A stretch of 64,000 nucleotides of DNA from Amphiscolops sp. MND2022 (lineage: Eukaryota): NCBI GenBank assembly GCA_964187785.1, contig OZ076409.1, positions 45,262,001 through 45,326,000 of the forward strand, given 5' to 3'. The number at the start of each line of letters is the position of its first letter. Positions within the stretch are counted from its first letter, which is position 1. This document shows positions 34,532-62,597 of this stretch, one piece after another. Below the pieces are notes generated by a model that was not told the origin of the DNA, searched no databases, and saw only the letters and a program-made list of their open reading frames with translations. Made by a program: the position numbers and the translations under genes.

Positions 34532-35040
34532 ATTCTAACTGAAACACTGTCAACATAACCAATGATTCCAACATGGAGTTACTATAGCGAAAATTGATAT
34601 AGCGATCAATACTGTTGTTCAGAAAATGGTCGCTTACCGGAAAAGAACCCTCGCAGAAAAACGTCTTCCTTTACAAGATCTCTGCGTACACATCACTTCT
34701 TAAAAATGTCATAAAACAATCTCGCAACAAATTAATTTTGTTCTAACATCTAGTGAGGAAAACGTAAAACGATTTTTTAAGGATTGCATCAGAAGCCAAA
34801 GTCTTACAAGATCTGAAAAGTATCCAAATTTTTCTCCAACGAAAGCGATTCTGATTAGTTTGTATTGCATAGGGCAGAGCCGTGACTGTGATAGCGAGAC
34901 CAAAGGTCTATATTTCGTTGAAGGGCGATTTTGCATCTAATAGCGACACAATAGCAAACTAGTGAATGCCTGTACAGCATTGTAGATTTGTCAAGACTGA
35001 AATTTGAACGACACCTGTGAAAATTTGTAAACAAATTTCA

Positions 35041-37902: not shown

Positions 37903-38419
37903 TCATGTAACATTGATTATACAAAAAATCTGAAAATTAAATAAAAACTGGCTACCTTCAGTCTGGCATAAAGAAAATGATAGTACCACCCACAATTGTC
38001 AATACAGAAAACACTCTCACATCTTCTACTTGGAAAAGGACAATGCTAGAAATTTACTAAAAATGATTATTGATTTCACCAAATCTTAAGTTGCTAGATA
38101 TCAGCGTATCAACGAACAAGCACTTCTCAATTCTAATTAAAATGCGACTAAAAGAAACAATGACCGATTCAGCGGGAAGAAAAACAGGATTTGAAGAATT
38201 GAAATTTTACCAATTTATACATTTATCACAACAAAATTCAACATTCAGATTATATTGCAAATTATGCTTTTCTATTTACTAATTTTGGTCGAATATTTTC
38301 AATACCAATAGACAATCTGTATAAACTACAAATAATAGTTTATGACTTCCAGTCTGTGTCTTCTTTCAATTGCTGAAACAAAGTAAATATTGTTGAAGTA
38401 GACAAAGCCTCGATTTATG

Positions 38420-42000: not shown

Positions 42001-45000
42001 CTGACAAAATTCAATTTAAATCAGTTTCAGTGGATGCAGTGATGTCCCTTTTAAATTTTTTAAAAGAATTTTTATATTAAAGGATCGGCCTTAAAATTTA
42101 AAGGATCCTTTAAAGGATTAGAAAAAACATATTTCAACAAATATTTTAAGGGGAACGTCATACAGACAATGTAATACACATCTAATTTTCAAACAGCAGA
42201 ATACTTGTTGTAATCTGACTGGCTGAATTTTGGAATCGCCTTGAATTCACTATGCTGAAAACGCGTGTCAGATTTTGTCGGGACTATTAGGAGTCGGAAA
42301 AAAGTTTCGACTACTTATGCAATAGTGTTGTTTTTTCCCGACCTTTCAATGAAAATTCAAATTTCTCAAGAACTCTTCATACAATTTTCTATAATATTTA
42401 GCACAGTCATCTAAGACCGGTGAATCCGTTGGACGTTGAAAGAACTATTTGTAATCTACCCAACAAGACATCAACTGGATCAGATGGGATGTCCAACAAA
42501 ATTTTAAAGCTCGCATCACCGACAGTTGTTCCGTGTCTAACACAACTAATTAACCGATGCCTTAAAGGGAAGTATTTTCCACCCGTCCTCAAAGTCGCCA
42601 AAGTGATACCTATCTATAAAGGAGCCAGTAATGAATTTGAAAACTATCGACCAATTTCTCTACTGCCACCAATTGCTGAAGTCTTTGAACGCCTTTTGTA
42701 TGAAAGGATGATGGATTACATACGGAAATACAAATTGATAAATGTCAAACAATTTGGATTTCGTCAGAAACACAAGACAGTTGATGCGATTGCTTCGGTT
42801 ATCGAAGAAATAACATCCTGTCTAGTTGGAAAAACACCTTCGTGTTGTGTATTCTTTGATCTCAAGAAAGCATTTGATACAAAAAATCATTCAATATTAC
42901 TTGAGAAATTGGATAATTATGTCTTCAGAGGAGCTATTAAGAATTTACTCAAGTCATATCTGCAGTAGAACTCAATATGTACAACTCGGCGCACAAAAAT
43001 CATCTACACTTGACACTGAGTGTGGTGTTCCACAAGGGTCTGTTCTAGGGCCATTGTTCTTTATTATATACGTAAACGATTTACCTTTGTGTTACTGCTA
43101 CCTCCAATTTAGTGATGTTGGTTTTGGATTTGATCAGTCACTAGGAGGGAAGTATTTGTTCCCTTCGGAAAAACAAAAAAACTCAATCATTCATTATGCA
43201 ACCGTGTACCTGAACTTCACAACAAGCTGGTAAAAGTTTCCATGTTACCTGACTGTACCTTGATAAGATTTATGAGTGATGAAGTGGTAAAACATTTCCG
43301 TCATTACTTTCTTAGAAACTTTATCCTTGGTAAAAGGGATCTTGCTGATTTTGTGTTCGGTAAAAAATTGACTTGAATGAATCAATTCAAAGCTATACTC
43401 GAAAGTAGTCATTGCATTGGGTAAGACGGGACTAACCCAGCCTGCACTTTGCGGTGTCTGCTGGGTTCTCCCTTATGAACCATACGCGAAGCAGGTACTG
43501 TGTGCACTCTTCACGCTTAGGTTGCATGGTTTTCTGGGGGAGTTCCCAGTAGACACCAGGTTCACCGCACAAGGCATCTGTATCCCCTTTGTTAAAAAAT
43601 ACATCTGAATACAAAGTATCAAACGGTTCCTTACCTACTTTAAATATTTCTAAAATTTTTTTTAATCAAAAGATTTTAAAAAAATTGACATTCCTCATAT
43701 TTCTGTTTTGATGTTATGAATTACTTGTTATCGGGCTTCCGTTAAGCTGGCATACGCCTTTGGAAGTTTGTTCTGTTATCTGATGACTATATGATTTGTA
43801 TTAGCTTTGTGCTTCTCGTCATTTAATAGCACATGAATTCAAAATTCAAATTCAATTCATCCTACTTCCAAAGGTGCTCCTGCGTGTGCAAAGGCATCAA
43901 AATCGTATGATTGGGATGTGAGAAGCATAGCCAAAATTAGCCCAAAAATAGCCATTTTTCGACTTTTTCTATTTTTTCAAACTCTCCATAGGATTCAAAC
44001 GAAATTTTCTACAGTCATTCTACACCATATTAGATATCTTGCTTGGATTAAAACGTGTCGCACCAAAAAACATCAGCAAAAAACCAAATTGATTGGTTCG
44101 ACCCATTATGGTAAGCAGCTGCACCGAAAAATCCAGAATAGATTCATATAATAATTTTCTCACCGTGCTATTCGTATTTATAATTGCTGTCAAATTTCCT
44201 TTTTATTTCGTTTAAAGGAAAATAGGCCCCTCCGGGGCTCAGTACTATTTCTGCTTTAATCTTTATTTTTTTAAAACAAAAAATCATCAATAAAAGAATC
44301 ATATCTGGAATACCAATACACTCCTGTTTAATCATTACTTAGAGCACAATTAATCACTGTACAAGTTTACACCGCCTTTAATTCTTCTCGGACTAAAGAA
44401 AATATAACTAAGCGTAGACGAAGTTTCGCATTCGCATTTGAATGCAGGCGAAGCTCTCAACGAACGAATAATTAACACTCATTCGCTTCATCTCAATGAC
44501 GTCAGCATACGAATGGATAATTACCACTCGCTCGTTCTATCGCACTAGAATTGAATTGTTGTCGGCAGCTTTCCCACGCTTACACTCACTGCCGAACAAA
44601 ATATCTGAATTATTCAGTAGGACGAAATTTGACGACTGAAAAAAAAAAGGACCAACTTTGAGGTTACAATAACATTCCTGCTAAAGCAGAAATATTAAAA
44701 AGGAATCCTTTAAAGGAAAATCCTTTTAAAGGATCGGTGTTTAAAGCAAGAATTTTTAAAAGGATCTTTCAGAGGAAAATAAAAAGGGACATCACTGAGT
44801 GGATGCTATTGAACACGTCAATAACCAATGGCTAACATTTCAGAAAATTTCAATGAAGAGTATGACAAAAAGCATCGTGCTATTTCCTAAATTAACTTGA
44901 GATTCTCCGGGAATCTAAAGTTTTCATTCTCAGCACTAGTCACGAATCTTAGTGTACTTTTGACCGATTCTAACGCTCGATCGGAATCAATGACAACTAA

Positions 45001-48000
45001 CTCGTTCAGCACTTGAAGTCTGGCAATAGCTGCACTTTTGACAGTATACATTGCCTGTGAAGAAGTGACATGCGCCATGCAATTCTTGTAGGTGTCTGGA
45101 GTGGAAACATTGTCATAAAAAGGTGGCTGGAGAACATCTCTATTGCACTTGAAAGAAAAGTTCTTTGCAGGGATGGCGGTGGCTTTGGGTGACACCATTT
45201 GATTACAGTTTTGGTATACGTCACCATCTAGTGGAGAGTGATAGGTTGGGTCGTTAGGTTGGCTCCTCCTTAGATCGTACTCCACAGTGTCAACGGCAGT
45301 GAAATGATACCAGAAACTGGTGGAGGCTGCCTCTCTCATTTGATTTGTATACACTTGAAAGAGATTCAAATGCCGCTCCACCTGTAAAAAAAAATTGTAA
45401 ATTGAAATAAAATTAGTACATTCATTTTCTAGAGGTGACATTTTGATGAAGAATATCATCTCAAGATGGCTTAACATAGATACAAATAAATTGTAAATTT
45501 TGCAATGTTTCATTGAAGAGAATGAACAGACTACAGGAAAAATTGACAAACATCTGGCTAAATTGCATTAAACGTAAAATTGTTAAATAGCCGAATGGAT
45601 TACTGATTTACTGCTACATGGCCGGTTTGGCTATTAACAGATAATGGGATTCACACATGGATTTGTAAAAAGGGCTGCAGAATTTTCCGTCCTGATATAT
45701 TTCAGCAATATGCACACAAAATTCGTTGAAAATTGCATGAAAATTTTCAAAGATGGTAATTAAAAAAAAACAACCGGAAAACTTGTTCAAAAGCTGAACT
45801 TTTCATATTTTGGCAATTTTTCTCCATAAATATGCTAAGAACCTAATTTTTGGTCGTTGAACCTTTTCCTCCTCAAATAAATTTAAAAACTAACCAAGAA
45901 ATTTTCAAAAGAAGATGACGCCGAGGTAGATCCACAGAAAATGATGATCCTCAAAATTTTGAACGTCAATTCTTTTCTCGGCAAGTCAAACACCATGAAC
46001 TCATTTACGATGAGGTTGCCGCCTATGTCCAATTCTTTAGCAGAGAACTGTCGAGAACAATGGCAAGATGCACCTGTTAAAGGATGAGGATAATTCATGG
46101 ATAAAATTTCCACGGAAAACTGAATGTTTTCTAGACAAGAGGGCATTTCTACTTCTTTCATCTCTTCCAAACGCACGTGCAATTGATTGCTGACTGTAAA
46201 CTTGATGTCAATCAGGACTTGACAAGCAAACAGCGTTTCGCTATGTTCGTCTACAACGTGTGAAGCAGCTGCTGACCTACCACTATTTTTCCCAGCTCCT
46301 GAAATGTTTTCATAAAAAGCTATTCCGCTGTCTTCAGAGCGATGATAAGACGACGTTACTTCCGGAATTCGCTTCCATTCAGGGTTGGAATGGTAGTAGG
46401 CTTCATTATTGGATTCTAGAGTCATGGTCATTCTATCATGTTCTTCGTTCGAATGTCTTTTAGGAACCCTGGGTGCAACTATTATGTTTTCATAAATGCC
46501 ACCACTTTCACCTTCTGCTTCAGCGTCGCTAGCGTGGCATTCCGATGACTTGGGACTGCGTGGTTCTTTTGCATAAGATGGCAACTGCGAAATGTTACTT
46601 AGATAGACATAGGTTTCGAGTCTTTCTCTTAAAGCTGAATTATGATTTGTTTCATTCGAGGCACTTTGATTTTCGTTCTGATATGACGACATTAGAAAGC
46701 CCATTGACTTGGAATTTTTCATTACATCTGCACCCATTGGCTTGCACCTCTCCTCTAAAGGACTGACATCTGATAAAAATCGGTAGTCATTGTCACATGA
46801 GCGTTGAGAAGTAGGACCAATCGGGAGTTGAGTGTTATTCGCGTTCTTGCGGATAGATTGAACAGGGTAAGTGGATGCTCTGAGCTCCTTCGGGTCTTTG
46901 AAGTTACCTGCCTGGCGTCGGTGCTCGGGATCGAATCGATTGAACTCGACCCCAGATTCCTGTAGTTTAACCAGAAGATCTCTGTATTGAGTTTCCAGTT
47001 TTGTCTGCCGCTCAAGCAGTGACAGTCTGAAACATTCAGTTTTAAAATAAGTCGAATGTTGCCACAAAATACTCCAATTGAAAGCAAATGTTTCAGATAT
47101 CTTTTTGAAATGGCCATGAGTTAATGAAATAAAACACTACTAGTTTTGATGAACAGACAGACCTGCGATTGCTGACAAAGTTGCATCTCTGTTTGTTGAT
47201 GGTAATCTCTTCTCTTAGTCTATAAATACGATCTTCCACTTCGTCCAATGATGCCTTCTCCGTTTTTGATTTCTCGTAAATCAAGTCGCGATGCCAGTTA
47301 AGAAGTTCCTGCATCAACGATTCCTTCTCTTGAATGATAGTTAAGCGTCCGTGATCGAACTCCGGTTGCAGAGGTGCCAGCTGGATGCGCACATTTTCCA
47401 TTGCTCCAATTACTTCCTTGAGCCTAGTAGAAAAACAAAGAAGATATTGAAAGTAGATCCAAACAAACTCTTCCAAAAACAGATCAAATCTCAGCTCGTT
47501 TCTAAGCAACTGGGCAAGAGCAATATCACATTCCCACAATGGCTGTAGTACTTCACATCTAATTTTCATATAAAAAATGAAATTTAGCAACAACCGACCA
47601 GAAACCAATTTTTGAGCTACCATGTATACTCCAACAAAACGAATCTGGCAGATGCTAAATACATTATATTCTAATTTGCGATTTTCTTTCTGTCCATGGT
47701 TTCAATTTTCGTTTAATTTTTGAATCTTTTGTCATTGCGAATTTTCACTACCTGCATAAGAGCCTAAAACAAAAAGGCATACGCTTGTTGGTTACGCGTA
47801 GTTGTTGTTGGCGTACGCTTATTGGTTACGATCGAGCCTTCTCAAAATATATCGTTGCTAAAGTAATTCAGGGTGGAGAATATCTCGGTGCTCAGTGGGC
47901 GCTTTATTCGAGTAATTTTCAGAGCACGGGAATAGTTTCCGTCCTGACCTATTGTAACGAAGACATATTAAGGCCAGGGGGCAGCCAAGTACGAAACGTG

Positions 48001-51000
48001 CAAAAAATGAAAATTCTGCAATTTCCATTGAAATTAATCCTTTTAAAAATTTACTTCTCTATCCAAGAGCATATTAAGTAACTCGTTTTGTTGTTGAACT
48101 CTGTGTATACTCACACCTACGGAAACATACAGAAATCGTACAAAAAAGGAATGAAACGGTCGGAAAATATTTTTTGCTCTAGTCGTTTCGGGGTCGCTCT
48201 TCAAAAGACAGATATTGTCAATTAGAAAATTGAAATTAAAAAAGTAATTTTTTCTTTGAACTCAGTGGTTTTTCATACCGGTTCAAACACTCAAAATTTG
48301 CTAAGAGCGGTAGAAATTTGAAGGTTTGAAAACCTTCAAAACAGTACAAAAATGCATGAAATGGTCATAAATTGGAGGTTCTGGCATTTCTGGTTATTTT
48401 GGGGTCATCTTGTGTGTTGGCGCCAGTCATCAGAAGGCAGAGAAACTCGATTCAGAACATGTTGGTTGAGATACGAGAACTTAAACTCCTAAAAACTTAG
48501 ATGAAAATTTGAAGAAAAGTCAATCGTCATAAAATCGAAAACCCCCCCCCAGTCAGGGTTTTCTCTGCAACTAATAACCGTAGAGACTTGAAACTTGGCA
48601 CACATACGCAGATACCTAACACGAACACACCGGCTAAGTTTCAAGATCATTCCCCCATTATAACCCCTTTACCCCTCACATGTGTAGTATTCAAGGTCAT
48701 TGAACCAAAAATGTAAACTTTGTTATTTACCTATATGACCACATTAGAATGTAACTCTGTTGAATTGATAATGTTTACATAGTGTAAACATACTTTCTAA
48801 CCCACCTAACCAACATGCCAAAACCACCACATTCTTTGTTTACATAGCCAATAACTTTAATAATTCACTTAAATGTCATTTATTTATACAACATATTTCA
48901 ACTGATATTTGCTTATATTTACTGTAGAATTGTAAACGATATGTATACTATTATTAGATAGAGATTTTCTCCACTGTATAGCTATAGTCAAGTTGGGTCT
49001 TAGGACCAAGAGACTAATTAATCAACTTCTCAATCTTCACAACTTTTCGCTAGAGTTAGAGCGACTAAGTAGCTACTCTCATAGTTGGAGAGCCGGAGCG
49101 CGTGAAGATACTGTGAGGGAAGTGTGTGCAGGATCACATCGGATCCAATTCAGTGCAAAGAGGAATCGCAGGAGATTCCACGGGTCACATCGGACCCACC
49201 AGTCAAAAGATACAGTCCTTTAAACAAGAAAACCAGGAATTGTTTAGTGACGGTCCACAGCACTAAGCAACGGATCAGGGCGGCGTAAAGCTTGTCAAGC
49301 CTCAGCGCAGGATAAGGGCAAGCAGCCGTTACATTTGGTCCGCCGACCCGGACAACTCGTTGGTGGACGACCCGGACTAGAAGAAGACGACTCGTTGGTG
49401 GACAACTGAGAAGATTGCCCAAGAAGAACAAGTGTCTGATTCTTGGAGTCTCTGACTTTGTGTCTCTGGGAGATTGGGCTACTGTGTCTCTGGGAGATTG
49501 GGCTACTGTGTCTCTGGGAGATTGGGTTACTGTGACTCTGGGAGATTGGGCTACTGTGTCTCTGGGAGATTGGGCTACTGTGTCTCTGGGAGATTGGACT
49601 ATTGTGTACTCTGGGAGTTGGGCTTTAGCGGCACTCTGGAGGTATTTGTGCATCATTTCTAGTTTGAGACGAATTGTATTCTTTGGGAACGTATTCCTGA
49701 TTGAAGCAAAGATCTGGTCTAAGACGTCATTGCAAGTAAATCCACCAAGTAAAGCCAAGGGATCAAGTCAGAGAGACAAGATCCACCGAAACAATCAAGT
49801 TCGTCAAAGAAGGCAAGTATAATCGACAGTATTGGGTTGATTCTTCAAGAATTGGCGATTGATTACCGGATTGAGCAGTTGACACTTTGTATCTGAGAAA
49901 TTGCAGAGTTGGGAAAAGTGACAAAGCCTACAAGAAACAATTGTGAAGTTCGAAAGCCCTCAGTGAAACAAAAGAGTCATATGAACAAATGAAAGCCAAA
50001 AAGAAAGAAAAGCAACTGATGCAGCACCCTCGAATGGCAATTGTGTTTGAAGGAAGAAACACAAAGCAGAGCCAACAACTGATGGAGCTCAGACCGAAAG
50101 ATTTGGAAAATGCGTCAGATTGGTACGCGTGGTGCCTCTATTGGGATATTGTACCCCTACATGTGAAAAAGCTCCACACATTGGTAAAAGACTTGGATGA
50201 CAAGCTCGATGAGGAAGGAGCTGTTGTATCCAAAAGCAAATTGATTGATCGGGTAATTGAATACCGCGAGAGAAGACAGGCATTGCTGTTCTGTGTAGAC
50301 TTTATGTTGAGTCTTACAAATGAAGAAACGCAAAGACAGCTCAGTCGAAGTGTGACTGAATGGGACGAATGCTTTGCGAAACTGGAATCGAGTTGGGGAT
50401 ATTGGTTCCCCGATGTGCAGCAAATGTTGAAGTGTCCAATTGATGGGACAAAAGAGTTGAAACTGAGTCAGATGACAAATGGAACATCTGCAGACGCAGC
50501 TATGAGATGCCCTCGCAAAAGAAAGTTGAGGCAAAGACGTGTCCATCAGGCAAAACCTAATTGTGTAAAAGAAACAGCTAGTGAAAAGGGATCACCGACA
50601 CGGTCAAGAAAGACCAAGGACCAAGAAAGCTGCTGTGGTATGAGAGACAGCATATCTGAAGTGGAAAACTCAATCAACGATGTGACATCACTACTCGAAG
50701 AAAACAGCAAGGTATCTGACGTAACAATCCTGATGGACAACAGACCAACAGTTAGCACGAAGTGGTCTAATGGAGATCGACTGTTTCCTCTAGCATTAGA
50801 GAAAGCGGAAGATCAGAAATCGGATGAAGTCCAAGGCCAAAGAAGCGAGACTGGACAATTGGAAATAGAGGAACTGGGCAAACATCCAAAACTGGTTGAA
50901 ACCAGAAGCAACAGAAGCTCAGTGATTTCGAAAAGTTCAATTGCTAGACGAGTTCTTTCTTTGAAAGTAAAAGCTCAAAAAGAGCAAGAAGAACTGCAAA

Positions 51001-54000
51001 CCCGACTCGAGAAACTAAAGCGTGAAGCAATACAAATGGAAATAGCTGACTTGCATGAACAGCTTGCCCGCAGAACTAGAATAGCTGAAAAGGAAAGAGA
51101 AATAGCGGAAGTGTCGAGCAGTCAGGGGACTAGCTTCCCAAGTGTCTCATCAGTCGACAGTTTCACGGAAGACTCAAGATGCATGGCTGAGACAGAAACA
51201 GTCGAAGACGGGGCTAAGTCCAATATTGCACTATCAGTTCATTTGAAATCAGAGAATGCAGTGAAATTAGTTCACAAAGGAAAGTTCTCCGTGCTTAGGA
51301 GAGACTCAAAACCTCCAACAGAAGCCGATGAGCAGGCTGATAACGAAACTTGCAGAAAAGAAGCAACATCACAACCAGATGTGACAGTTGCGAACAAAGG
51401 AACCTCGAAGTTCCTCACAGCGGAATGCATACAGAACTGGTCAGAAACATTCATTGTAGACAACGGTCGGCAAGACGTCCGTTCAGAAACCCTCCTCGTG
51501 GATACCAAACGGGTTTTGGAAGAAGAGATTCACTTAGGCATGAGTGAGCATTCGATAGTGCAAACAGAAGAGATATTGAATCACACAATGACGGAAACAA
51601 GGAAGGAGCATAGATTCTTATCATTCGCATCTAGCAAGCAAACTTTGGGAGAATCGAGTGTCCAACGTGAACTGCTGCAAGAGAGTGCAGAAGTTTTCAC
51701 CGTTCAACAGGATGTACAGCAAGGGAAAATGTTGGAAGTGACGATGCTTCATGACAGCACTCTACTTCTTGAAGAGGGAAACAAATGTTTTGAATTCGAC
51801 AAAAGTTATGGATTTGTGAATGAGCAGCAATTTGCACTGCAAAAAAGTTTGAATGAAGAAGTCATGTGTCAACAGCTATGCCACGTTGCAATGAAACATG
51901 ACAAACCCGTGAAAGGCAATGAAGGTGAAACACAAGCCATGAATACATCGTTTGGAAAGAAATTTCATTTTGACTTCAAAGTAAGCTTTGTTGAAGATAC
52001 TATCCCGAGTAAGAATAATGTTTGGAACCTTTGGATTGGAAATGGGAACTCTGGGATGGATGCGGTGGCACAGGCTAACGGGATTGTTGAAACTCAATTG
52101 AGCAAAGGTCACCGCAAGCGACCGAAGAAAAGAGCTTGGAAAATTGAACCCCTCTCAAACCTGATTCATGGAATGACGGAAGGAACTCAGTTGAACGAGA
52201 ATGGAATACAAAAGGACACAGTTTGGTTTGATCTGATAGACAAATCATCAGTGACAAGAACGCAAATGTGTTCATTGGAAGTACCAACAACAGAAAGTTG
52301 GAGCGGTGGGTCTTGCAAAGGGCCGGCTGCACCATTCAAGACAATGTGGACTCAGAATGGGACTTTTGGAAAATTGGAAGTTTCCTATGATCTAGTGGAG
52401 CCTCGTAGAAACCCAGACGCTAAGAAGTTGGAGTTTTGTGGTGAGAGAAGCTGGGTGGCGTTCTACAAACACAAGCGAAAGCGAAACTCCAAAGCATTGC
52501 AGTTATTGGAAGAAAACATGGATGTAGACACGGAATACGACGAGTCAGAAGGGAAGAAGCAAAATGAAGCGCAGCAACTGAGTTCCGAACGCAAATTTTT
52601 CTTTAGATGCACAAAGAACACCGAAAACAAACGGGAGAACTTCAACTGTCGTAATGTTGGAAATTCTCTTTATCTACTGATTATGATAATTGTTGATTCA
52701 AGTACATTTCAAGAACTGCAGATCCAGATCAAGATTATGGAAATATTAGAGAATGAAATCAGTTTGACATATCTCCCCCGCGGTCAGTCAATTTTGATGA
52801 TGAATTGCGAAGCAAAGCAGATATTGGGAAACTGGCTGGAGATGTTCTCGACTTATTCTGGGAACATATTCTTTGGATGTCGATGGGAGCTAAGTCAAAT
52901 GAAATGAAGCATGGTTGTATCATACCTTTTAAAGGTTCTAAAAGAAAGCAATTGATTGAACACGAAGAATGTCAGACGTTGACGATGAAGTTTGTAATAA
53001 TTGGGAAGACCACGACTTCAAATGAGCAAAACTGTTTTTGGAAATATTTGGATGTGTTATGTGAACCTGCCGAAAACTACCTTATGGTCAGCGAACAGGA
53101 ATATGGTTTGGGATTTTGTTGCAGCAGAGAAAGAACAGGGCAATTAACCGTCAAACATGACAATGAACCTGGAGATCTCAAAACGACAACGACAATCGAT
53201 GACAAACTCAAAAGACCAGTAGTGAAACTGGCACCCATGTTCTACGAAAGTGTTTTTCGGGAGAAAAACAGGGCCGGCAATGTTGGCGCCAGTCATCAGA
53301 AGGCAGAGAAACTCGATTCAGAACATGTTGGTTGAGATACGAGAACTTAAACTCCTAAAAACTTAGATGAAAATTTGAAGAAAAGTCAATCGTCAAAAAA
53401 TCGAAAACCCCCCCCCAGTCAGGGTTTTCTCTGCAACTAATAACCGTAGAGACTTGAAACTTGGCACACATACGCAGATACCTAACACGAACACACCGGC
53501 TAAGTTTCAAGTTCATTCCCCCATTATAACCCCTTTACCCCTCACATGTGTAGTATTCAAGGTCATTGAACCAAAAATGTAAACTTTGTTATTTACCTAT
53601 ATGACCACATTAGAATGTAACTCTGTTGAATTGATAATGTTTACATAGTGTAAACATACTTTCTAACCCACCTAACCAACATGCCAAAACCACCACATTC
53701 TTTGTTTACATAGCCAATAACTTTAATAATTCACTTAAATGTCATTTATTTATACAACATATTTCAACTGATATTTGCTTATATTTACTGTAGAATTGTA
53801 AACGATATGTATACTATTATTAGATAGAGATTTTCTCCACTGTATAGCTATAGTCAAGTTGGGTCTTAGGACCAAGAGACTAATTAATCAACTTCTCAAT
53901 CTTCACAACTTTTCGCTAGAGTTAGAGCGACTAAGTAGCTACTCTCATAGTTGGAGAGCCGGAGCGCGTGAAGATACTGTGAGGGAAGTGTGTGCAGGAT

Positions 54001-55704
54001 CACATCGGATCCAATTCAGTGCAAAGAGGAATCGCAGGAGATTCCACGGGTCACATCGGACCCACCAGTCAAAAGATACAGTCCTTTAAACAAGAAAACC
54101 AGGAATTGTTTAGTGACGGTCCACAGCACTAAGCAACGGATCAGGGCGGCGTAAAGCTTGTCAAGCCTCAGCGCAGGATAAGGGCAAGCAGCCGTTACAT
54201 TGTGAATTTTGGCACTTTTTATTTTGGCACAAATGTAAAAGTTGCGGATCAAATTTTATGGTAGAATTCTGTGGAAAAACTATCATTCGTGTACAAAAAC
54301 GTAACATAATCAAAGTCGAGCAAAACAAAATGTGGTAACTTTTTATTCCCACATTTATGAAACATGGGGACGGAAAATAAAAGCCAGAGCCGCATGTGCG
54401 GTATAGGAGTCGGCTTAGGTCTTTTTTCTTCTGACTTGCTCGAATCCCAGTCATACGAATTTGATGAAATTGCATATACTAAGCCCTTATAATGGTGTAG
54501 AGAAAGAGACTTCATAAAAGTTCTTTCAAACAGTAGAGTATTTGAGAAAATCGAAGTCCAAAATTGGCCGTTGTTTGGTTAATTTTTGGCCATTGTACAC
54601 ATAGGACCATAATATGGTGTAGAAAGACAGTAGAAAATTTCGTTCGAATTGATGCCATTGCGCAAGCAGGAGCACCTTTGGGAGTATAATGACTGTGTGA
54701 AATTTTATGGAAATCGCATGGACAGTTTTTGAGAAATTTGAAACTTTCATTGAAAGTTCGAGAGAAAAAACCACACGATTGCATAAATAGTCGAAATTTT
54801 TTTCCGACTCCTAATTAGATTTAACATACTGCTTGCGGATTGATGATGGTGTATCGTCTTGCCCCTTTTCTGACTGCAAATTGACTTCAGGCGACGTCAA
54901 TGAATCTGTCGGTGTCTCTTCCAGAAGATGCCTAAGTAAATATTATAATATATTTTTAACCAGGCCACGTGAGCTACAAATTAATCAGAAAACTCCATCA
55001 ACCTACCATATAGAATTGTCAAATTTGTTCGTCGACGAGAAGTTGTAAGAAAAGCCGCGAGCGGAAAGGTCTTTTCTCAGCTGCTGTACTCGTTTTTGAG
55101 ATTCGAGGTACTGTTTAGTTAGAGCCGAGATGTCATAATTTTTGTTTCTGCATTGCAATGAATTGCTGCTAGCCACACCACTTGCACTTTTCATGACTTG
55201 CTTCAAAGACTCCGATTGCACGTTCGCCAAATCCAATCTGCTTTTCAATGTTTCTGTGATCTCACTTTTTGACTTGAAATCACTCTGCACTGCAAGCAGA
55301 TACTTCCATATCATTCTCGCCTGGCTCAGTCGTAGCTTCTCCATCTCGTAAGAATCGGTTGCCTGGTCTTCGAGACTAGAGTTATACCGATGATGACTAC
55401 TAGAAGCACTGGGTTCGGTGCTCATAGTTCTACCAGGACAGTCAAGTTTGAACTTGCTGTTGTTCGATTGGATGCTATAGTCTTCAGTGGCAGCCAACTG
55501 AGGAGTTAGTGGTTCCGGTGAATTATCAGGAGGCTCCCATTGGGTTGTTTTGGTGTTATGGTCTATGTAAAAAACATTGCCATCTTCATCGCAGCTCACT
55601 TCCCATCCGGATGGTAAGGTCATTCCAGATGGTGGGAAGTCTCCCACAGTATTTGCATTCATTTGAGCACGAATGCCTCGCGATTGAGTGGAAGGCCAAT
55701 TCAT
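39086..55704 (-). CDS. WWC1: KIBRA/WWC-family Hippo-pathway scaffold (WW, coiled coil, C2-like, aPKC-binding region), ~1104 aa
   Basis: Seven phase-consistent GT-AG exons: 55007-55704, 54830-54931, 47163-47423, 45895-47026, 44897-45381, 41751-42000, 39086-39472 (3315 nt). [32 protein letters not shown]; coiled coil [13 protein letters not shown]...[18 protein letters not shown]2-like [27 protein letters not shown]...FKRNAVER resembling KIBRA LNRSDSD...FVRNSLER. Confidence 0.85.
40150..40995 (+). mobile_element. Tc1-family transposase remnant
   Basis: Translates to [11 protein letters not shown]...[13 protein letters not shown](N)VWTVLK at ~40690-40800, resembling the Tc1 WPxxSPDLNPIENVW motif. 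Frameshifted; boundaries approximate. Confidence 0.75.
41276..41423 (+). mobile_element. 148-bp retro-insertion (probably Penelope-like pLTR fragment) with a 12-bp target duplication
   Basis: Direct repeat TAAACATACCGA at 41264-41275 and 41424-41435; contains a hammerhead motif. Confidence 0.7.
41360..41399 (+). ncRNA. Minimal type I hammerhead ribozyme (Penelope-like)
   Basis: Stem I GATT/AGTC; core CTGATGA plus one extra T; stem II GGTC-TACAA-GACC; GAAA; palindromic stem III AAACGTTT; NUH site TTA. Confidence 0.75.
42037..44797. mobile_element. Non-autonomous hAT element (in WWC intron) carrying nested insertions
   Basis: Perfect 16-bp TIR CAGTGATGTCCCTTTT/AAAAGGGACATCACTG; perfect 8-bp TSD AGTGGATG (42029-42036 and 44798-44805); subterminal TAAAGGA repeats at both ends. 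Confidence 0.92.
42400..43858 (+). mobile_element. CR1/L2-type LINE fragment nested in the hAT element, with internal deletion
   Basis: RT motifs [24 protein letters not shown] and [20 protein letters not shown], then a jump at ~43090 to a 3' region highly similar to 59013-59730; (AATTC)n tail. Confidence 0.88.
48415..49333 (+). repeat. 5' LTR of BEL/Pao-derived element
   Basis: Near-identical to 53281-54199. Confidence 0.95.
49459..49624 (+). repeat. 24-bp tandem repeat (six full units plus one degenerate) in the retroelement leader
   Basis: Unit TGTGTCTCTGGGAGATTGGGCTAC starting at 49459, 49483, 49507, 49531, 49555, 49579 and 49603. Confidence 0.95.
49989..52907 (+). CDS. 972-aa ORF of the BEL/Pao-derived element (gag-like coiled coil plus unrecognisable remainder; no PR/RT/RH/IN catalytic motifs seen)
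   Basis: Uninterrupted ATG-initiated ORF between the LTRs; Ser-rich and coiled-coil segment [12 protein letters not shown]...[13 protein letters not shown] like BEL gag N-termini. Confidence 0.65.
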   Translation: MKAKKKEKQLMQHPRMAIVFEGRNTKQSQQLMELRPKDLENASDWYAWCLYWDIVPLHVKKLHTLVKDLDDKLDEEGAVVSKSKLIDRVIEYRERRQALLFCVDFMLSLTNEETQRQLSRSVTEWDECFAKLESSWGYWFPDVQQMLKCPIDGTKELKLSQMTNGTSADAAMRCPRKRKLRQRRVHQAKPNCVKETASEKGSPTRSRKTKDQESCCGMRDSISEVENSINDVTSLLEENSKVSDVTILMDNRPTVSTKWSNGDRLFPLALEKAEDQKSDEVQGQRSETGQLEIEELGKHPKLVETRSNRSSVISKSSIARRVLSLKVKAQKEQEELQTRLEKLKREAIQMEIADLHEQLARRTRIAEKEREIAEVSSSQGTSFPSVSSVDSFTEDSRCMAETETVEDGAKSNIALSVHLKSENAVKLVHKGKFSVLRRDSKPPTEADEQADNETCRKEATSQPDVTVANKGTSKFLTAECIQNWSETFIVDNGRQDVRSETLLVDTKRVLEEEIHLGMSEHSIVQTEEILNHTMTETRKEHRFLSFASSKQTLGESSVQRELLQESAEVFTVQQDVQQGKMLEVTMLHDSTLLLEEGNKCFEFDKSYGFVNEQQFALQKSLNEEVMCQQLCHVAMKHDKPVKGNEGETQAMNTSFGKKFHFDFKVSFVEDTIPSKNNVWNLWIGNGNSGMDAVAQANGIVETQLSKGHRKRPKKRAWKIEPLSNLIHGMTEGTQLNENGIQKDTVWFDLIDKSSVTRTQMCSLEVPTTESWSGGSCKGPAAPFKTMWTQNGTFGKLEVSYDLVEPRRNPDAKKLEFCGERSWVAFYKHKRKRNSKALQLLEENMDVDTEYDESEGKKQNEAQQLSSERKFFFRCTKNTENKRENFNCRNVGNSLYLLIMIIVDSSTFQELQIQIKIMEILENEISLTYLPRGQSILMMNCEAKQILGNWLEMFSTYSGNIFFGCRWELSQMK
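52904..53335 (+). CDS. Short ORF ending in BEL integrase C-terminal remnant, running into the 3' LTR
   Basis: ATG at 52904 overlaps the TGA of the long ORF (ATGA); contains EPGDL...[15 protein letters not shown]. Confidence 0.45.
   Translation: MKHGCIIPFKGSKRKQLIEHEECQTLTMKFVIIGKTTTSNEQNCFWKYLDVLCEPAENYLMVSEQEYGLGFCCSRERTGQLTVKHDNEPGDLKTTTTIDDKLKRPVVKLAPMFYESVFREKNRAGNVGASHQKAEKLDSEHVG
53281..54199 (+). repeat. 3' LTR of BEL/Pao-derived element
   Basis: Near-identical to 48415-49333; followed by TSD TTGTG. Confidence 0.95.
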
Positions 55705-55988
55705 CGATGCAGGGGATAGAAAACGTATCCAAGAGTATAGAAAAATAAACTACGTGAATTAACCTCCATATCTAACCTGAAAAAATTGATAGTTACACTA
55801 TGCAGAGCGAAAATGATTACAACTTAATGAAAAGTTATGAAGCATTGTTTTCAAATCATCTGAACTGATTTACTGGCTCAAGAAAGGAAGATGGTCTGCA
55901 AAATCATATAACCCAGGAACACATGTGTCAAGTAAACTTGGGCTTCCATAATCTCTACAATTGTACATTTATCACCAATAACACATAC

Positions 55989-56014
55989 CGTATATTAAGA
56001 AGCTCGCTCACACA
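55989..56014 (-). other. Predicted 26-nt non-coding first exon of the WWC gene
   Basis: Preceded by a T-rich tract, TACTGAC branch-like motif and TTGCAG acceptor; followed by a GTATGT donor that can pair with the TTTCAG acceptor at 55777. Confidence 0.5.
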
Positions 56015-56245
56015 CTGCAAGCGTCAGTAAAAATGAACATGAAAAAATCACAAATCGAAAAAAAATGCAATTAAAAACAAGAAAATCTATAATGGCTATA
56101 GATATTCAGGTAATCGTGTGATATCCAGAAGCATCAAAATGAAGCACAATAAAATTAGGATAGTGTAAAACAATGGAATCAGTCATAGTTCGAAACAAAA
56201 TCATTCTACAATAAGTACAGACGTTCACAGAATTGCAAGCACATG

Positions 56246-57969
<1,724 letters not shown>

Positions 57970-58093
57970 TTAAAACAACAAAATCTGAAACAGAGGATAG
58001 ATTAGCATTTATAATGGGTAATTAAGAAATGCAACTCTAACATTTAGCTCTGTAGAGCCACAGAAACAACCCAATCCCAGTTTCTAAACATAC

Positions 58094-58136
58094 CAATGTT
58101 TGGGTGAAATGTTGCAACGACGGGAAATCGGAAATT
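58094..58136 (-). other. Predicted 43-nt non-coding first exon of TYMS
   Basis: ATTCAG acceptor upstream (58137-58138); GTATGT donor downstream that can pair with the TTTCAG acceptor at 57985. Confidence 0.45.
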
Positions 58137-58270
58137 CTGAATAATTATTTAAAAAAATTGAAGATCGTCGTTTCATTTTCGATGATGCTTCACAGTCGAA
58201 GTTCATGTCGATGGAGAAAACTGAATTAGAGCAATATTACAGCAATTATGTGTTCACAGTAAAAATTCAT

Positions 58271-61200
58271 TCATTCAGATAAACATGCAAGATACCCATT
58301 CAACGTCTTTATCAAGTCACCTCGAGCCACTTTTTCCTAAAACAAAAAGACGACGAATAGAATGTGAATAAAGTTGTGTCTAAACCAAAAGTTTGCTCAT
58401 GATACTAACTTCAACTCTAGTAACTACATTTCTTAATGTGACGCGATCTTCAGCTATTTCACTTTCCCCGATGATCACCGCCCATGGAATTCTGTTGTCT
58501 TCAGCATACTGTAGCTGGTCAAGCATCTTTGGATTTAGCTTGTAAGAAAATTCGGTCTGAAACAAAATTCAAATAATTCAGTGACAGTTCTATGTGATTG
58601 TTTCATTCGGAGAAGTTGGTATGTTGGAAACAGATTATTACTAAGTTGATCTTGAAAAACCAAACTTTGACTGTATCGAGTTTAAAAAAAATGTCGTTTT
58701 GCAATTACACTGTTCTGAGAGCGAGAAATTTCTTTAAAAGATCTCAATTGTTATACTATTATAAAACGCACGTGAATCCAATTGTACAATACGGCGTCCT
58801 AATATATGGATGTACGTCATATTCGAATCTTGATCCCAATCTGAAGATCCAAAAACAAATAGTCAGATCGATATGTTGTTTTCCAAAATATGCCAGTGTC
58901 CATCAATTCAAGGTTGAGAATGAATTACCAACTGTTTACGAATTGCATGTATGTGAGCTGCTAAAAACTATTATAGGATGCGAGAGATCTGAACATGTCC
59001 ATGATAAAAAAAGACTGCTACCTTCAATTTAGTGATGTTGGTTTTGGACTTAGATCAGTCACTAAGAGGGAAGTATTTGTTCCCTTCAGAAAAACAAAAA
59101 AACTCAATCATTCATTATGCAAACGTGTACCTGAACTTTACAACAAGCTGGTAAAAGTTTCCATGTTACCTGACTGTACCTTGATAAGATTTATCAGTGA
59201 TGAAGTGGTAAAACATTTCCGTCATTACTTTCTTAGAAACTTTATCTTTGGTAAAAGGGATCTTGCTGATTTTGTGTTCGGTAAAAAAATTGACTTGAAA
59301 CGAATCAAATCAAAGCTATACCCGAAAGTAGTCATTGCATTGGGTAAGACGGGCCTAACCCAGCCTGCACTATGCGGTGTCTGCTGGGGTTTCCTATGTT
59401 AGGAACGATGCTCGAAGTAGGTACTGTGTGCACTCTTCATGCTTGGGTTGCATGGTTTCTTGTAGGAGTTCCCAGTACACACAAGGTTCACCCTACAAGG
59501 CATGTGCGTCCCCTATTTCGGAAATACATCCAAGTGCACAGTATCAAACGGTTCCTTACATACTTTACTTAATTCAAAAAAAATAGTTTAAAAAAAATTG
59601 ACATTCCTCATATCTGTTTTGATGTTATGATTTGCTTGTTATCAGGCTTCCGTCAGGCGGGCATATGCCTTTGGAAGTCTGTTCTGTTGTTTGATGATTG
59701 TAAATGATTTGTATTTGCTGCGTTTCTGTTCATTGAATAACAGATATTATTATCGATCACTAGAACTAGCGATCAATCAGTATAGCAAAACAAGCCGGGA
59801 ACGGCCCAAGTCGGGGCCCATACCAAAGGCTCAACAAATTATGGAAAAAAGTGGGAAAAATCGATAATGTTATACAAGAAACGAAAACGTTACATCCGAA
59901 CTTTGAAAACGTTATATCCCAACTTTGAAAACGTTATTTTAGGGAAAAAAAACTTGCATCGTGCCAAAAAAACAAAGGGGGACCGTTGGGTCTCCCCTCT
60001 ACTTTTGGAAGCATAAACCAGAAACGTTTATCCGGAATTCGTTATATCCGTTTTGCGTTAAATTGGGTTTGCGCCAAAAAATCCAAAGGGACCCTTTTGT
60101 AACATTGGAAAATTCTCCAAAAAACGTTATATCCGGTATACGTTATATCCGGTTTGCGCTAGTCCGATATGGGTTGTGTTATTATCGAAGGGGACTCCTT
60201 AGCACTTTTTACATCATTGAAAATTCTCCAAGGAACGTTATATCCGGGATACATCACAGCTTATAAAATCTGTCATTTCATTGGTACTTAAAACAAGCCG
60301 GGAACGGCCCAAGTCGGTGCCATATCTAAGGCTCAAAAAAAGCAAAAGGACTTCAAAGTGTCATGTATTCTCTTCTAGAGTACCCGCATGAAAAAATTTT
60401 AAAAAAATCGAATTTTTGTGGTCTCCGGTAAGTCGCATAGTGCCGAAAAATGTAACACAGAGGCGAAGCGGTGCTTCGCAACACATGACGAAGACAACGA
60501 TTATTTTAATATGCGTATATATTTTATTTTAATCGCATGCGTATATATTCAACAGTTCAACTTTATTCAATAACGTCCTTATGGCACAGTGGTTAACACT
60601 TATGCCGCGCAATCGGGAGGCTGCAGGTTCGAATCTCTCTGGGGTTTTGGCTTTTCTCTAAAAGGCGCTTATAATAAAAATACATAAGGACCGCGCGTAC
60701 TGAAACCGGAGTTTGGTGTTGTAAGAGAAAATACTTTTTTGCCCTTATTACATGGCGGGCGTGTCAGTGAAAAGAGTTTGGGTGTCAGTACGCTGCAAGC
60801 TGCAGAGCCTCCTTAAAGGCGCTTATTATGAAGTTGGCTACTGTGGAAAAAAAACTTTCTTAGCTGGACTGCAATGCACATTGACTTCGTCATGTGCAAA
60901 AAGGGGGCCTTTTGGAAGTTTTTGAACATCCATTCTTTTGCATAAAAGAAAAAATTGAAGGGGGACCGTTTGGAGACATTAAAGAAATTTGCCAAAAGTC
61001 TCAGAGCCGAAATAACCTGCACAAAATTGGTCAAGGGCGGGACTCGAACCCACGTCCTTCTGCTTGGCAGACCTCAAAAAAGCCTAATTAACCTCTATGC
61101 CAAGTGCCAGTAGAAGTCGTGTGGCACAGTTTAGTGTTAGTGCAAGTCAGCTTATAAAATCTGTCAGTTCGTTGGTCTTAAAAAAAAGAAAAGTCACTGC

Positions 61201-62597
61201 AATTGTCTCCGCTTTCTACGAAAAGCGCCGACTAAAAAAAAAGAAAAGTCCTTACTATAGTCTGCGTTTTTCTACAAAAACGCCGACTAGAAAGCCAGTG
61301 CTATAGTTTTGCGTTTTCTACGAAAAGCGCCGATTAAAAATAAAGAAGATTCTCAAACTAAAGTAAACCAGGAACGGAATTTGACTTAGTTTAGTCTAAG
61401 TATATTTTCGTATATTGAGCAAAATTCACTTATTGGCAATTACAATACCGCAATTCCATATCAAAAAAGTGGATCGAGAAAAATCTACATGAAAAGACTC
61501 CTTTCTCAGTTCATCAAAATACACTCATTATAGAGCCAAGCAATATACTAGTTTCAATTTTTAGGGGAAAACACTGATATAATCGTAGTGATTTCATGAA
61601 GAGCTAACTGAAAAACCACCCAGGAGCATGTTTTCAGTCGGCGCTTTCGTAGAAAGAGCAGACTGTAGAAGTACAAAGAGCAGATTATAGTAGTGGCTTT
61701 CAAAACCAACGAAGTGACATTTTATAAGCTTTATAAGCTGTTGGCAATGTATCTTTTGATAATCTGCATACTATATTTGAGCTGTAAAAGGTGCCAAGAA
61801 GCCCCCTTCGACAATAACACAACCCATGCCGGATTTAACGCAAACCGGATATAACGGATACCGGATATAACGTTTCTTGGAGAAATTTTCAAAGCTGTAA
61901 AAAGTGCCAAGGAGTCCCCTTCGCCAATTACACAACTGGATTTCACGCAAATCGGATATAACGTATACCGGATATAACGTTTCTTGGAGAATTTTTCAAT
62001 GTTACAAAAGGGTACCCCTCCGATTTTTAGGATGTTTAGAGTTGATACAAAATCATTCGAAGCCAAGCATTCGTCTTATGCGTATCTCTTGGAATATTTT
62101 TGGCACTAAAAAGTTCTTTTTGCATATTTGAAATACTTAACTTTTCTGAACCTTGAGCGGGGCGTCGACTTGGGCCGTTCCCGGCTTGTTAAAAATGAGT
62201 CCTCAGAAGTTTCAGCATTTGCAAAAGTTCCAGTGTAAATATGTCTGTCATTCTTTAGTATCAAAGACGATTTTGGAGTATGGTATGAAAACCCAGATAA
62301 ATTTTAAACTATGAATGTTTTCCAGAAAAAAAATCTCGGACGTATTTACTCCCAGTATTGAAACGAGTGACAACAGATCACAAACAACAATAGTCTTACT
62401 TTAATTCCAGCTGCCCACAATTCGGTACACAACTTGAGGCGATGCATGTGAAACTTCTTTTGAGCACTGGCCACTATGACCTGAGTTTCAGTTGTACGCA
62501 TACTCTGGAAGCCCTGGCTCTTGGCTGCCGCTAACTCTTTCCTCTCGATGATGGACAGCAGGCGTTCAATGCCGATACTGACACCCACACAAGGTAC
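58271..62597 (-). CDS. HARS1: Histidyl-tRNA synthetase, last three coding exons (5' part presumably beyond the window)
   Basis: Exons 62400-62597 ([16 protein letters not shown]...[14 protein letters not shown]...LWAAGIK), 58410-58556 ([33 protein letters not shown]) and 58271-58336 ([12 protein letters not shown]...SE*). Class II motif 3 and anticodon-binding domain. Confidence 0.95.
58590..59752 (+). mobile_element. 5'-truncated CR1/L2-type LINE 3' end in a HARS intron
   Basis: ORF2 C-terminal motif [19 protein letters not shown]; 3' region shared with 43093-43800; stem-loop at ~59643-59680; (TAT)n tail. Confidence 0.85.
59789..62190. repeat. Cluster of one interspersed repeat family beginning AACAAGCCGGGAACGGCCCAAGTCG (copies at ~59789+, ~60291+, and inverted ending ~62190)
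   Basis: Shared terminal sequence, internal CGTTATATCCG tandem arrays, AAAAGCGCCGACT repeats and a minus-strand tRNA B-box at ~61040. Confidence 0.75.
60454..60897 (-). mobile_element. HINE-like element, long copy, with tRNA-like module at 60575-60646, nested in another repeat
   Basis: Same termini, subTIRs and hairpin as 35041-35329; carries about 155 bp extra between AAAGGCGCTTAT direct repeats. Confidence 0.7.

What the first reader, a model, noticed from the sequence alone, without database searches (positions are those of the whole stretch)
55700..58340. Candidate trans-spliced eukaryotic operon: HARS-TYMS-KIBRA (possibly extending to ataxin-1 and TTC12)
Seen: five functionally unrelated genes lie head-to-tail on the minus strand. 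The HARS stop (58271) is only ~133 nt from an AG acceptor (58137) that opens a predicted 43-nt non-coding TYMS exon. The TYMS stop (56246) is ~230 nt from a T-rich tract, TACTGAC and TTGCAG acceptor (56015) that opens a predicted 26-nt non-coding WWC exon. I saw no strong upstream donor for these acceptors and no AATAAA in either spacer. Each downstream gene also has a TTTCAG shortly before its ATG (57985, 55777, 37930, 34539). Established: this layout resembles operons resolved by spliced-leader trans-splicing in nematodes, tunicates and flatworms. Inference: a polycistronic unit, which would be notable if the host lineage has no described operons.
Basis: partly seen in the sequence, partly recalled or inferred. 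Interest (0 to 1): 0.75.

Follow-up and report, generated by a model that had tools for sequence, protein, structure and literature searches.

The report
Likely acoel-worm operon: HARS-TYMS-KIBRA
Three unrelated genes sit head to tail a few hundred bases apart in an acoel worm that adds a spliced leader to its mRNAs, so they are likely made as one transcript and cut apart, which would extend animal operons to a new phylum, though no RNA data were available to show it.

Summary
The layout is real and all quoted coordinates check out. The host is a convolutid acoel. Its genome holds 1,678 exact copies of the published acoel spliced leader (SL), SL RNA genes in arrays with 5S rRNA, and SL-headed retrocopies of seven host genes, so SL trans-splicing is shown for this genome. 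Six of those seven true SL acceptors end in TTTCAG (5 of 21 cis acceptors do). HARS and TYMS appear adjacent in Convolutriloba macropyga too. Elsewhere in the genome, named neighbouring housekeeping genes are co-oriented in 23 of 25 pairs, several with 194-432 nt spacers. Against: no RNA run was listed, none of 12 SL-supported genes lies under 1 kb behind a same-strand gene, the spacers hold splice donors, and AATAAA is rare in this host anyway. Verdict: probable SL-resolved operon for HARS-TYMS(-WWC), about 0.6; extension to ataxin-1/TTC12 about 0.3. My literature searches found no described acoel operon. This scan noted a candidate in another acoel genome (e1-9819784, unreviewed).

The parts
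58271..62597 (-). HARS (histidyl-tRNA synthetase), last three exons: 62597-62400, 58556-58410, 58336-58271. The gene starts beyond the window (ATG at G000:C1:45335765); first gene of the cluster
   Evidence: tblastn with C. macropyga and S. roscoffensis HARS; Pfam anticodon domain. Repeats begin about 860 nt upstream of its first acceptor and no Pfam gene was found there
57985..58270 (-). HARS-TYMS spacer, 286 nt from stop to ATG-proximal acceptor; must also hold the HARS 3' UTR; no repeat, no AATAAA
58094..58136 (-). Predicted 43-nt non-coding TYMS exon between ATTCAG (58137) and a GTATGT donor (58093)
   Evidence: sequence; acceptor scores 6.4 on the cis matrix, 2.8 on the SL matrix; use not shown
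57985..57990 (-). TTTCAG acceptor 24 nt before the TYMS ATG; most likely SL addition site
   Evidence: SL-matrix score 13.0; inferred
56246..57960 (-). TYMS coding exons 57960-57489, 57157-56963, 56523-56246 (314 aa)
55777..56245 (-). TYMS-WWC spacer, 469 nt, 43% T, no repeat, no AATAAA
55989..56014 (-). Predicted 26-nt non-coding WWC exon between TTGCAG (56015) and a GTATGT donor (55988)
   Evidence: sequence; scores 4.1 (cis) and 1.2 (SL); use not shown
55777..55782 (-). TTTCAG acceptor 72 nt before the WWC ATG (55704); most likely SL addition site
   Evidence: SL-matrix score 11.0; start codon supported by a 76%-identical relative that begins with the same residues (P0281)
39086..55704 (-). 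WWC/KIBRA-like gene
   Evidence: WW and WWC1 Pfam matches; last exon assigned by a KIBRA-like C-terminal motif that I recall from memory
36013..37930 (-). Ataxin-1-like (AXH) gene with TTTCAG acceptor at 37930; 1,156 nt behind the WWC stop; uncertain member
25979..34539 (-).

Best explanation
HARS, TYMS and WWC lie head to tail with 286- and 469-nt spacers in an acoel genome that uses spliced-leader trans-splicing, and they likely form an operon: polymerase would start at the HARS promoter and read on, each upstream mRNA would be cleaved and polyadenylated in the spacer, and the 31-nt leader would cap the downstream mRNA, most likely at the TTTCAG just before its start codon (57985, 55777). 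Shown: layout, SL RNA genes, SL use on other host genes, the TTTCAG signature, co-orientation of sampled neighbours. Inferred: read-through, absence of internal promoters, SL on these genes, the exact site. The upstream AGs (58137, 56015) with their short exons may be alternative entry points.
For: (1) The published acoel SL occurs exactly 1,678 times in G000, control 0; array units carry SL, a GTAAGT donor, an Sm-like AATTTTTGA site and 5S rRNA every 904 bp (fold z -3.35). (2) Seven host genes have intron-less SL-headed retrocopies whose parent junction is a splice acceptor. (3) TTTCAG in 6 of 7 of these against 5 of 21 cis acceptors (Fisher p 0.007); all four downstream genes of the cluster have it. 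Four of five host orthologues of a relative's SL mRNAs also have it, and for HSP60 the relative's leader junction maps onto that acceptor. (4) C. macropyga TYMS and HARS have consecutive RefSeq numbers (XP_075252914; 915 and 916) on the same 68.6-Mb sequence. (5) Around sampled proteasome, LSM, DnaJ, UBC and CCT genes and SL parents, 23 of 25 named adjacent pairs are co-oriented (18 of 20 loci; p 1e-5 and 2e-4 against 50%). Stop-to-TTTCAG spacers of 194, 274, 298, 367 and 432 nt occur among them, and one further 250-nt pair repeats the TYMS anatomy (AG, 20-nt exon, GTAAGT, TTTCAG, ATG). (6) AATAAA within 190 nt of the stop in 0 of 22 genes with a tandem follower against 7 of 29 others (p 0.015).
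Against: None of the 12 SL-supported genes has a same-strand gene ending under 1 kb upstream (the nearest is about 1.2 kb), so no short-spacer gene is directly shown to carry SL. Promoters here can be small: the XRN2 acceptor lies about 290 nt from the start of a divergent GST gene. Both spacers hold a consensus donor upstream of the TTTCAG, as a normal first exon would; such donors occur in spacers and in upstream regions of stand-alone genes alike, and in flatworms operon-internal acceptors show the least cis-splicing (PMC12582326, section 11). Spacer lengths among the 23 pairs are spread from 194 nt to several kb, with no sharp peak. With unnamed ORFs counted by eye the orientation bias falls to about 35 of 49 (p 0.002). 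Base composition did not separate spacers from promoter regions (p 0.06-0.19). The ATG-proximal acceptors used for the SL matrix were picked by eye and lean to TTTCAG.
Confidence: 0.6

Rival explanations
1. Each gene has its own compact promoter in the spacer. The 43- and 26-nt stretches are the ends of ordinary first exons, the AGs at 58137 and 56015 are incidental, and the TTTCAG is used in cis or receives SL from a short outron. The genes are merely packed tightly in a gene island (a hybrid of read-through and internal starts is possible).
For: 0 of 12 SL-supported genes sits under 1 kb behind a tandem gene; a bidirectional region of about 290 nt serves XRN2 and GST; consensus donors lie 130-235 nt upstream of several proven SL acceptors; 58137 and 56015 score weakly.
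Against: It does not explain the co-orientation of unrelated neighbours (23 of 25) or the lack of AATAAA before tandem followers (0 of 22). The 286-nt spacer must hold a 3' UTR (median at least 108 nt in 49 mRNAs of a relative), a termination zone, a promoter and a 109-nt intron.
Confidence: 0.3
2. It is an operon, but resolved: SL is added at 58137 and 56015 onto the short non-coding exons, which are then cis-spliced to the TTTCAG acceptors. This is a variant of the best explanation and its probability is included there.
For: Precedent in this genome: a TRPM-like gene takes SL at a TTTAAG acceptor onto a 70-nt non-coding exon. An upstream donor is reported to convert a trans-spliced acceptor to cis use (Conrad 1993 as cited in PMC8629364; passage only). 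The same AG-short exon-donor anatomy recurs before a UBC gene.
Against: 6 of 7 proven SL acceptors end in TTTCAG and these two do not; eIF2A and WDR36 take SL at TTTCAG although a GTAAGT lies 233 and 179 nt upstream.
Confidence: 0.2
3. The closeness is an accident of gene-dense islands or of assembly and has no transcriptional meaning.
For: Housekeeping genes cluster in this repeat-rich genome, and spacer lengths vary widely.
Against: The 1-kb junction is single-copy in G000, all reading frames are intact, HARS-TYMS adjacency appears conserved, and orientation is not random.
Confidence: 0.1

Closest known systems
Operons of the flatworms Macrostomum lignano and parasitic Neodermata (PMC8629364, PMC12582326; passages and one section read)
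   Same: One main SL serves stand-alone and operon genes; repeat-rich genome; mostly conserved housekeeping genes; repeats inflate spacers. All but the last spacer here pass the M. lignano distance rule (1,000 bp or less after removing repeats).
   Different: There SL reads and poly(A) ends are mapped; here none are. Different phylum and unrelated SL sequence.
Chaetognath operons (PMC12460157; passages read)
   Same: No operon-specific leader; ribosomal-protein and proteasome genes among members.
   Different: Defined by gaps under 250 bp between gene models with SL reads; several leaders.
Caenorhabditis elegans SL2 operons (PMC7986045 passages; TTTCAG consensus recalled)
   Same: TTTCAG acceptor consensus; after subtracting a 3' UTR the HARS-TYMS gap would be roughly 100-200 nt.
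   Different: No second, operon-specific leader was looked for or seen; spacers here are more variable and hold donors.
Ciona and Oikopleura operons (PMC7986045 passages)
   Same: A single SL for all targets.
   Different: Their intercistronic gaps have medians of about 1 and 30 bp; these spacers are far longer.
SL trans-splicing in Symsagittifera roscoffensis (PMC9911081; passages and supplement text read)
   Same: Identical leader sequence; 30.2% of genes trans-spliced there.
   Different: The word 'operon' does not occur in its main text. The host here is another species (HARS exon 67% identical to S. roscoffensis, 73% to C. macropyga).

Membership tests
SL-resolved eukaryotic operon | Two or more unrelated genes, same strand, closely spaced | tested here: met
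   286 and 469 nt from stop to ATG-proximal acceptor; outer spacers 812 and 1,166 nt net of repeats
SL-resolved eukaryotic operon | Host encodes an SL RNA (leader, donor, Sm site, hairpins) | tested here: met
   Rfam matched only the neighbouring 5S rRNA
SL-resolved eukaryotic operon | Host mRNAs receive the leader at splice acceptors | tested here: met
   seven retrocopy-parent pairs
SL-resolved eukaryotic operon | Downstream genes have an acceptor of the host's SL type | tested here: met
   TTTCAG at 57985, 55777, 37930, 34539; scores 10-13, inside the training range 8-17
SL-resolved eukaryotic operon | The acceptor has no cis donor upstream | tested here: inconclusive
   the TTTCAG sites have GTATGT upstream; the unpaired AGs score weakly
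SL-resolved eukaryotic operon | Leader is joined to TYMS and WWC mRNAs | not testable with these tools
   no RNA holder listed; no match among 110 SL-bearing metagenome contigs
SL-resolved eukaryotic operon | One promoter and a polycistronic precursor | not testable with these tools
   needs cap mapping, chromatin or nascent RNA
Nematode SL2-type operon | A separate leader dedicated to downstream genes | not tested
   only the one published leader was searched for
Ciona-type spacer-less operon | Poly(A) site abuts the acceptor | tested here: inconclusive
   poly(A) sites are unmapped; 134 nt separate the HARS stop from 58137, which a 3' UTR could fill, but 286 and 469 nt separate the stops from the TTTCAG sites

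The most novel reading that the evidence does not exclude
Convolutid acoels organise a sizeable share of their housekeeping genes in SL-resolved operons, even in a 1-Gb repeat-rich genome. HARS-TYMS is a conserved example, and runs such as SEC23-RPL18A-SmD2-MOB and RPSA-RPL35-SmD3-NUP98 are others. These would be the first operons described in Xenacoelomorpha.
Probability: 0.55. Interest if true: 0.62.

Novelty: new member of a known kind. Interest (0 to 1): 0.5.

Why it matters
Operons are patchy among animals (nematodes, tunicates, flatworms, chaetognaths), and whether they arose once or many times is debated. Acoels belong to Xenacoelomorpha, placed near the base of Bilateria, and a 2008 survey table leaves their operon status as '?' (PMC2481426, Table 4). 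Confirmed acoel operons would add a phylum to that map, give named loci for a quick test with existing RNA-seq, and matter for acoel gene annotation and promoter design. The mechanism itself would be the known one.

Tried and rejected
RNA runs: no RNA holder was listed for window 54900-58600, so no reads could be laid; this is no evidence either way. Retrocopies of the cluster's genes: the 1-kb HARS-TYMS junction has one match in G000. Of the SL-headed copies listed (100 of 141, 73 of 73, 53 of 53, overlapping), none began like these genes by eye; copies where TT, CT or GT follows the leader were not enumerated. 110 SL-bearing metagenome contigs gave no tblastx match to the window and no tblastn match to TYMS, HARS or WWC; they come from a relative (78% DNA identity for one gene). 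A named acoel WWC orthologue was not found, so conservation of the TYMS-WWC link is untested; S. roscoffensis TYMS was not among the 120 hits shown, so adjacency there is untested. One of three further orthologue searches (MEMO1-like) found nothing. A HARS-TYMS fusion through the 43-nt exon was rejected by hand translation (out of frame). A gene ending just upstream of HARS was considered; no Pfam match, and the region turns repetitive. k-mer contrasts between 11 spacers and 12 upstream regions gave only post hoc, uncorrected differences. The sigma-70 scan does not apply to an animal. One zinc-knuckle ORF opposite a DnaJ gene (L292) was left out of the orientation count as a probable retroelement; with it the count is 23 of 26.

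Full report
Observation. Pfam supports TYMS, a WW/WWC1 gene, an AXH gene and a TPR/ARM gene and the HARS anticodon exon. The TYMS exons give 314 aa, 77.5% identical to Convolutriloba macropyga TYMS. HARS begins about 9.8 kb beyond the window; repeats start about 860 nt upstream of it and no Pfam gene was found there, so it is probably the first gene. From stop codon to the acceptor nearest the next ATG, the spacers are 286, 469, 1,156 and 1,474 nt; the last two hold 344 and 308 nt of repeats.

Host. The closest named full-length TYMS is from C. macropyga, a convolutid acoel. A HARS exon is 73% identical to C. macropyga and 67% to Symsagittifera roscoffensis, so the host is a third convolutid or near relative. 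SL trans-splicing is published for S. roscoffensis (30.2% of genes; PMC9911081, passages and supplement text; preprint passages); 'operon' and 'polycistron' do not occur in either main text. A 2008 table lists acoel operons as '?' (PMC2481426, passages). Searches for acoel, Xenacoelomorpha, Symsagittifera, Convolutriloba or Hofstenia with operon, polycistronic or trans-splicing terms (listings only, except the papers named here) showed no description of acoel operons. The library lacks most subscription papers.

SL machinery in this genome. The published leader matches G000 exactly 1,678 times, control 0. In a tandem array each 904-bp unit holds the leader, a GTAAGT donor, an Sm-like site and a 5S rRNA gene; the RNA folds better than 199 of 200 shuffles. 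Of the first 12 copies opened, one was an SL RNA gene and most others headed LINE-like elements. Among further copies, seven host genes appeared as intron-less SL-headed retrocopies in one carrier element. I call them XRN2, eIF2A, WDR36, CSE1L, SLC28, ACSL and TRPM-like; WDR36 and CSE1L are Pfam-supported and the other names are my recognition. Their parents were all found, and each junction is an AG acceptor. This shows SL trans-splicing of host mRNAs without RNA data.

Acceptor signature. TTTCAG ends 6 of 7 proven SL acceptors and 5 of 21 cis acceptors read from gene models (p 0.007). A matrix built from the seven sites plus 12 ATG-proximal sites picked by eye, cluster genes excluded, scores 57985, 55777, 37930 and 34539 at 13.0, 11.0, 10.0 and 11.0 (training range 8-17), but 58137 and 56015 at 2.8 and 1.2. 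The eye-picked sites bias the matrix towards TTTCAG; the 6-of-7 count does not depend on them. So the leader most likely joins near the ATG.

Relatives. A metagenome scan found 110 contigs with the same leader, most of them leader-headed mRNAs of related acoels. Among 49 held whole, the median 5' UTR is 15 nt, the median 3' UTR at least 108 nt, and 5 contain AATAAA. None matched the cluster's genes. Five have mapped host orthologues (U1-70K, HSP60, CCT1, UROD, THOC6): four have TTTCAG and one TTGCAG. C. macropyga TYMS and HARS carry consecutive RefSeq numbers on one 68.6-Mb sequence; that consecutive numbers mean neighbours is my knowledge of RefSeq practice, not a result.

Genome-wide context. 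I fetched the surroundings of 13 proteasome and 16 LSM genes (10 kb each), of 17 of the 30 DnaJ loci returned (the rest looked element-borne), of 22 of 30 UBC loci and of the CCT genes, and of five SL-supported genes. Candidate exons came from a coding model and were scanned with Pfam (247 ORFs sent, after dropping antisense shadows and many focal exons). Among adjacent pairs where both genes could be named, 23 of 25 are co-oriented (18 of 20 loci); XRN2 in one of the two opposite pairs is named by eye. With unnamed ORFs added by eye the count is about 35 of 49. Measured spacers run 194, 274, 298, 367, 432, 543, 609, 702, 847, 887, 989, 1,057 nt and longer. Two loci hold four co-oriented genes each. 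A 250-nt spacer before a UBC gene repeats the TYMS anatomy. AATAAA is absent within 190 nt of the stop in 22 of 22 genes with a tandem follower and present in 7 of 29 others (one of 52 rows dropped for a wrong stop coordinate; p 0.015). I had no non-operon animal genome as a control; the 50% expectation is the random one.

Against. None of the 12 SL-supported genes lies under 1 kb behind a same-strand gene; if 15% of SL genes did, this would happen about one time in seven (hand calculation). The XRN2 acceptor is about 290 nt from a divergent gene, so promoters can be small. Consensus donors occur upstream of the acceptor in spacers and in stand-alone genes alike, which fits ordinary first exons; in parasitic flatworms operon-internal acceptors are the least cis-spliced (PMC12582326, section 11). 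Spacer lengths show no sharp peak, and composition did not separate spacers from promoter regions.

Comparison. It works like the single-leader operons of M. lignano and parasitic flatworms (PMC8629364 passages; PMC12582326 passages) and of chaetognaths (PMC12460157 passages); gaps are longer than in tunicates (PMC7986045 passages). By the M. lignano distance rule the first three spacers qualify, provided the downstream genes carry SL. The two defining tests, SL on these mRNAs and a polycistronic precursor, could not be run, so membership is probable, not shown.

Verdict. Probable SL-resolved operon for HARS-TYMS(-WWC), 0.6; independent compact promoters 0.3; no meaning 0.1. Extension to ataxin-1 and TTC12 about 0.3. 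A known mechanism in a phylum where I found it undescribed. An earlier, unreviewed note of this scan reached a similar reading in another acoel genome (e1-9819784); I did not check it and do not count it as evidence.

Noticed in passing
L022, L032/L176, L054, L177, L178, L180, L181, L192 (e.g. G000:C7:10866000-10870900): One mobile carrier element holds SL-headed, intron-less host mRNA fragments, always joined at the same base of the carrier. About 540 nt upstream and up to 1.9 kb downstream are 98-99% identical between copies. Some inserts are chimeric (XRN2 then a PNPase-like piece; eIF2A then an EF-2-like piece; names by eye), which suggests template switching at the leader.
   Followed up: partly
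G000 dispersed SL copies; L016:8251 and L017:254, just beyond the window: Many LINE-like families begin with the leader. Some copies carry a stretch complementary to the leader just inside their 5' end, and sister copies are joined further in at TTTCAG or at a non-canonical TTTCAT. Relatives' DNA contigs show the same.
   Followed up: partly
G000:C1:16.23-16.42 Mb (L013, L014): SL RNA genes alternate with 5S rRNA genes in a 904-bp tandem array.
   Followed up: yes
L267 (C5:60332801-60342800) and L266 (C13:14926501-14936500): Two runs of four co-oriented housekeeping genes: SEC23-RPL18A-SmD2-MOB and RPSA-RPL35-SmD3-NUP98. Other short-spacer pairs: THOC7-DnaJ (L285, 194 nt), methyltransferase-DnaJ (L287, 274 nt), RRM-CCT7 (L353, 298 nt). 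Good test loci for operons.
   Followed up: partly
window 55769-55701 (-): An out-of-frame upstream ATG 7 nt after the WWC TTTCAG opens a 22-codon frame whose TGA overlaps the main ATG.
   Followed up: no
window 48415 to about 54200: An LTR-type element inside a WWC intron: direct repeats 4,866 nt apart and 99% identical over the 300 nt reported, one 986-aa plus-strand ORF without a Pfam match, and a 24-nt tandem repeat at 49435-49650.
   Followed up: no
window 58258-58253 and 56229-56224; L246, L353: TGTGAA lies within 100 nt after the stop in 4 of the 11 shortest spacers. Post hoc; may be chance.
   Followed up: no
G000: At least 150 DnaJ-domain matches, many in near-identical repeated copies, suggesting a transposon family that carries a J domain.
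   Followed up: no
G000:C1:33715344 (-) and C3:83590414 (+): Two CCT5-like copies with the same ends; the C1 copy is a single open frame, possibly a retrogene.
   Followed up: no
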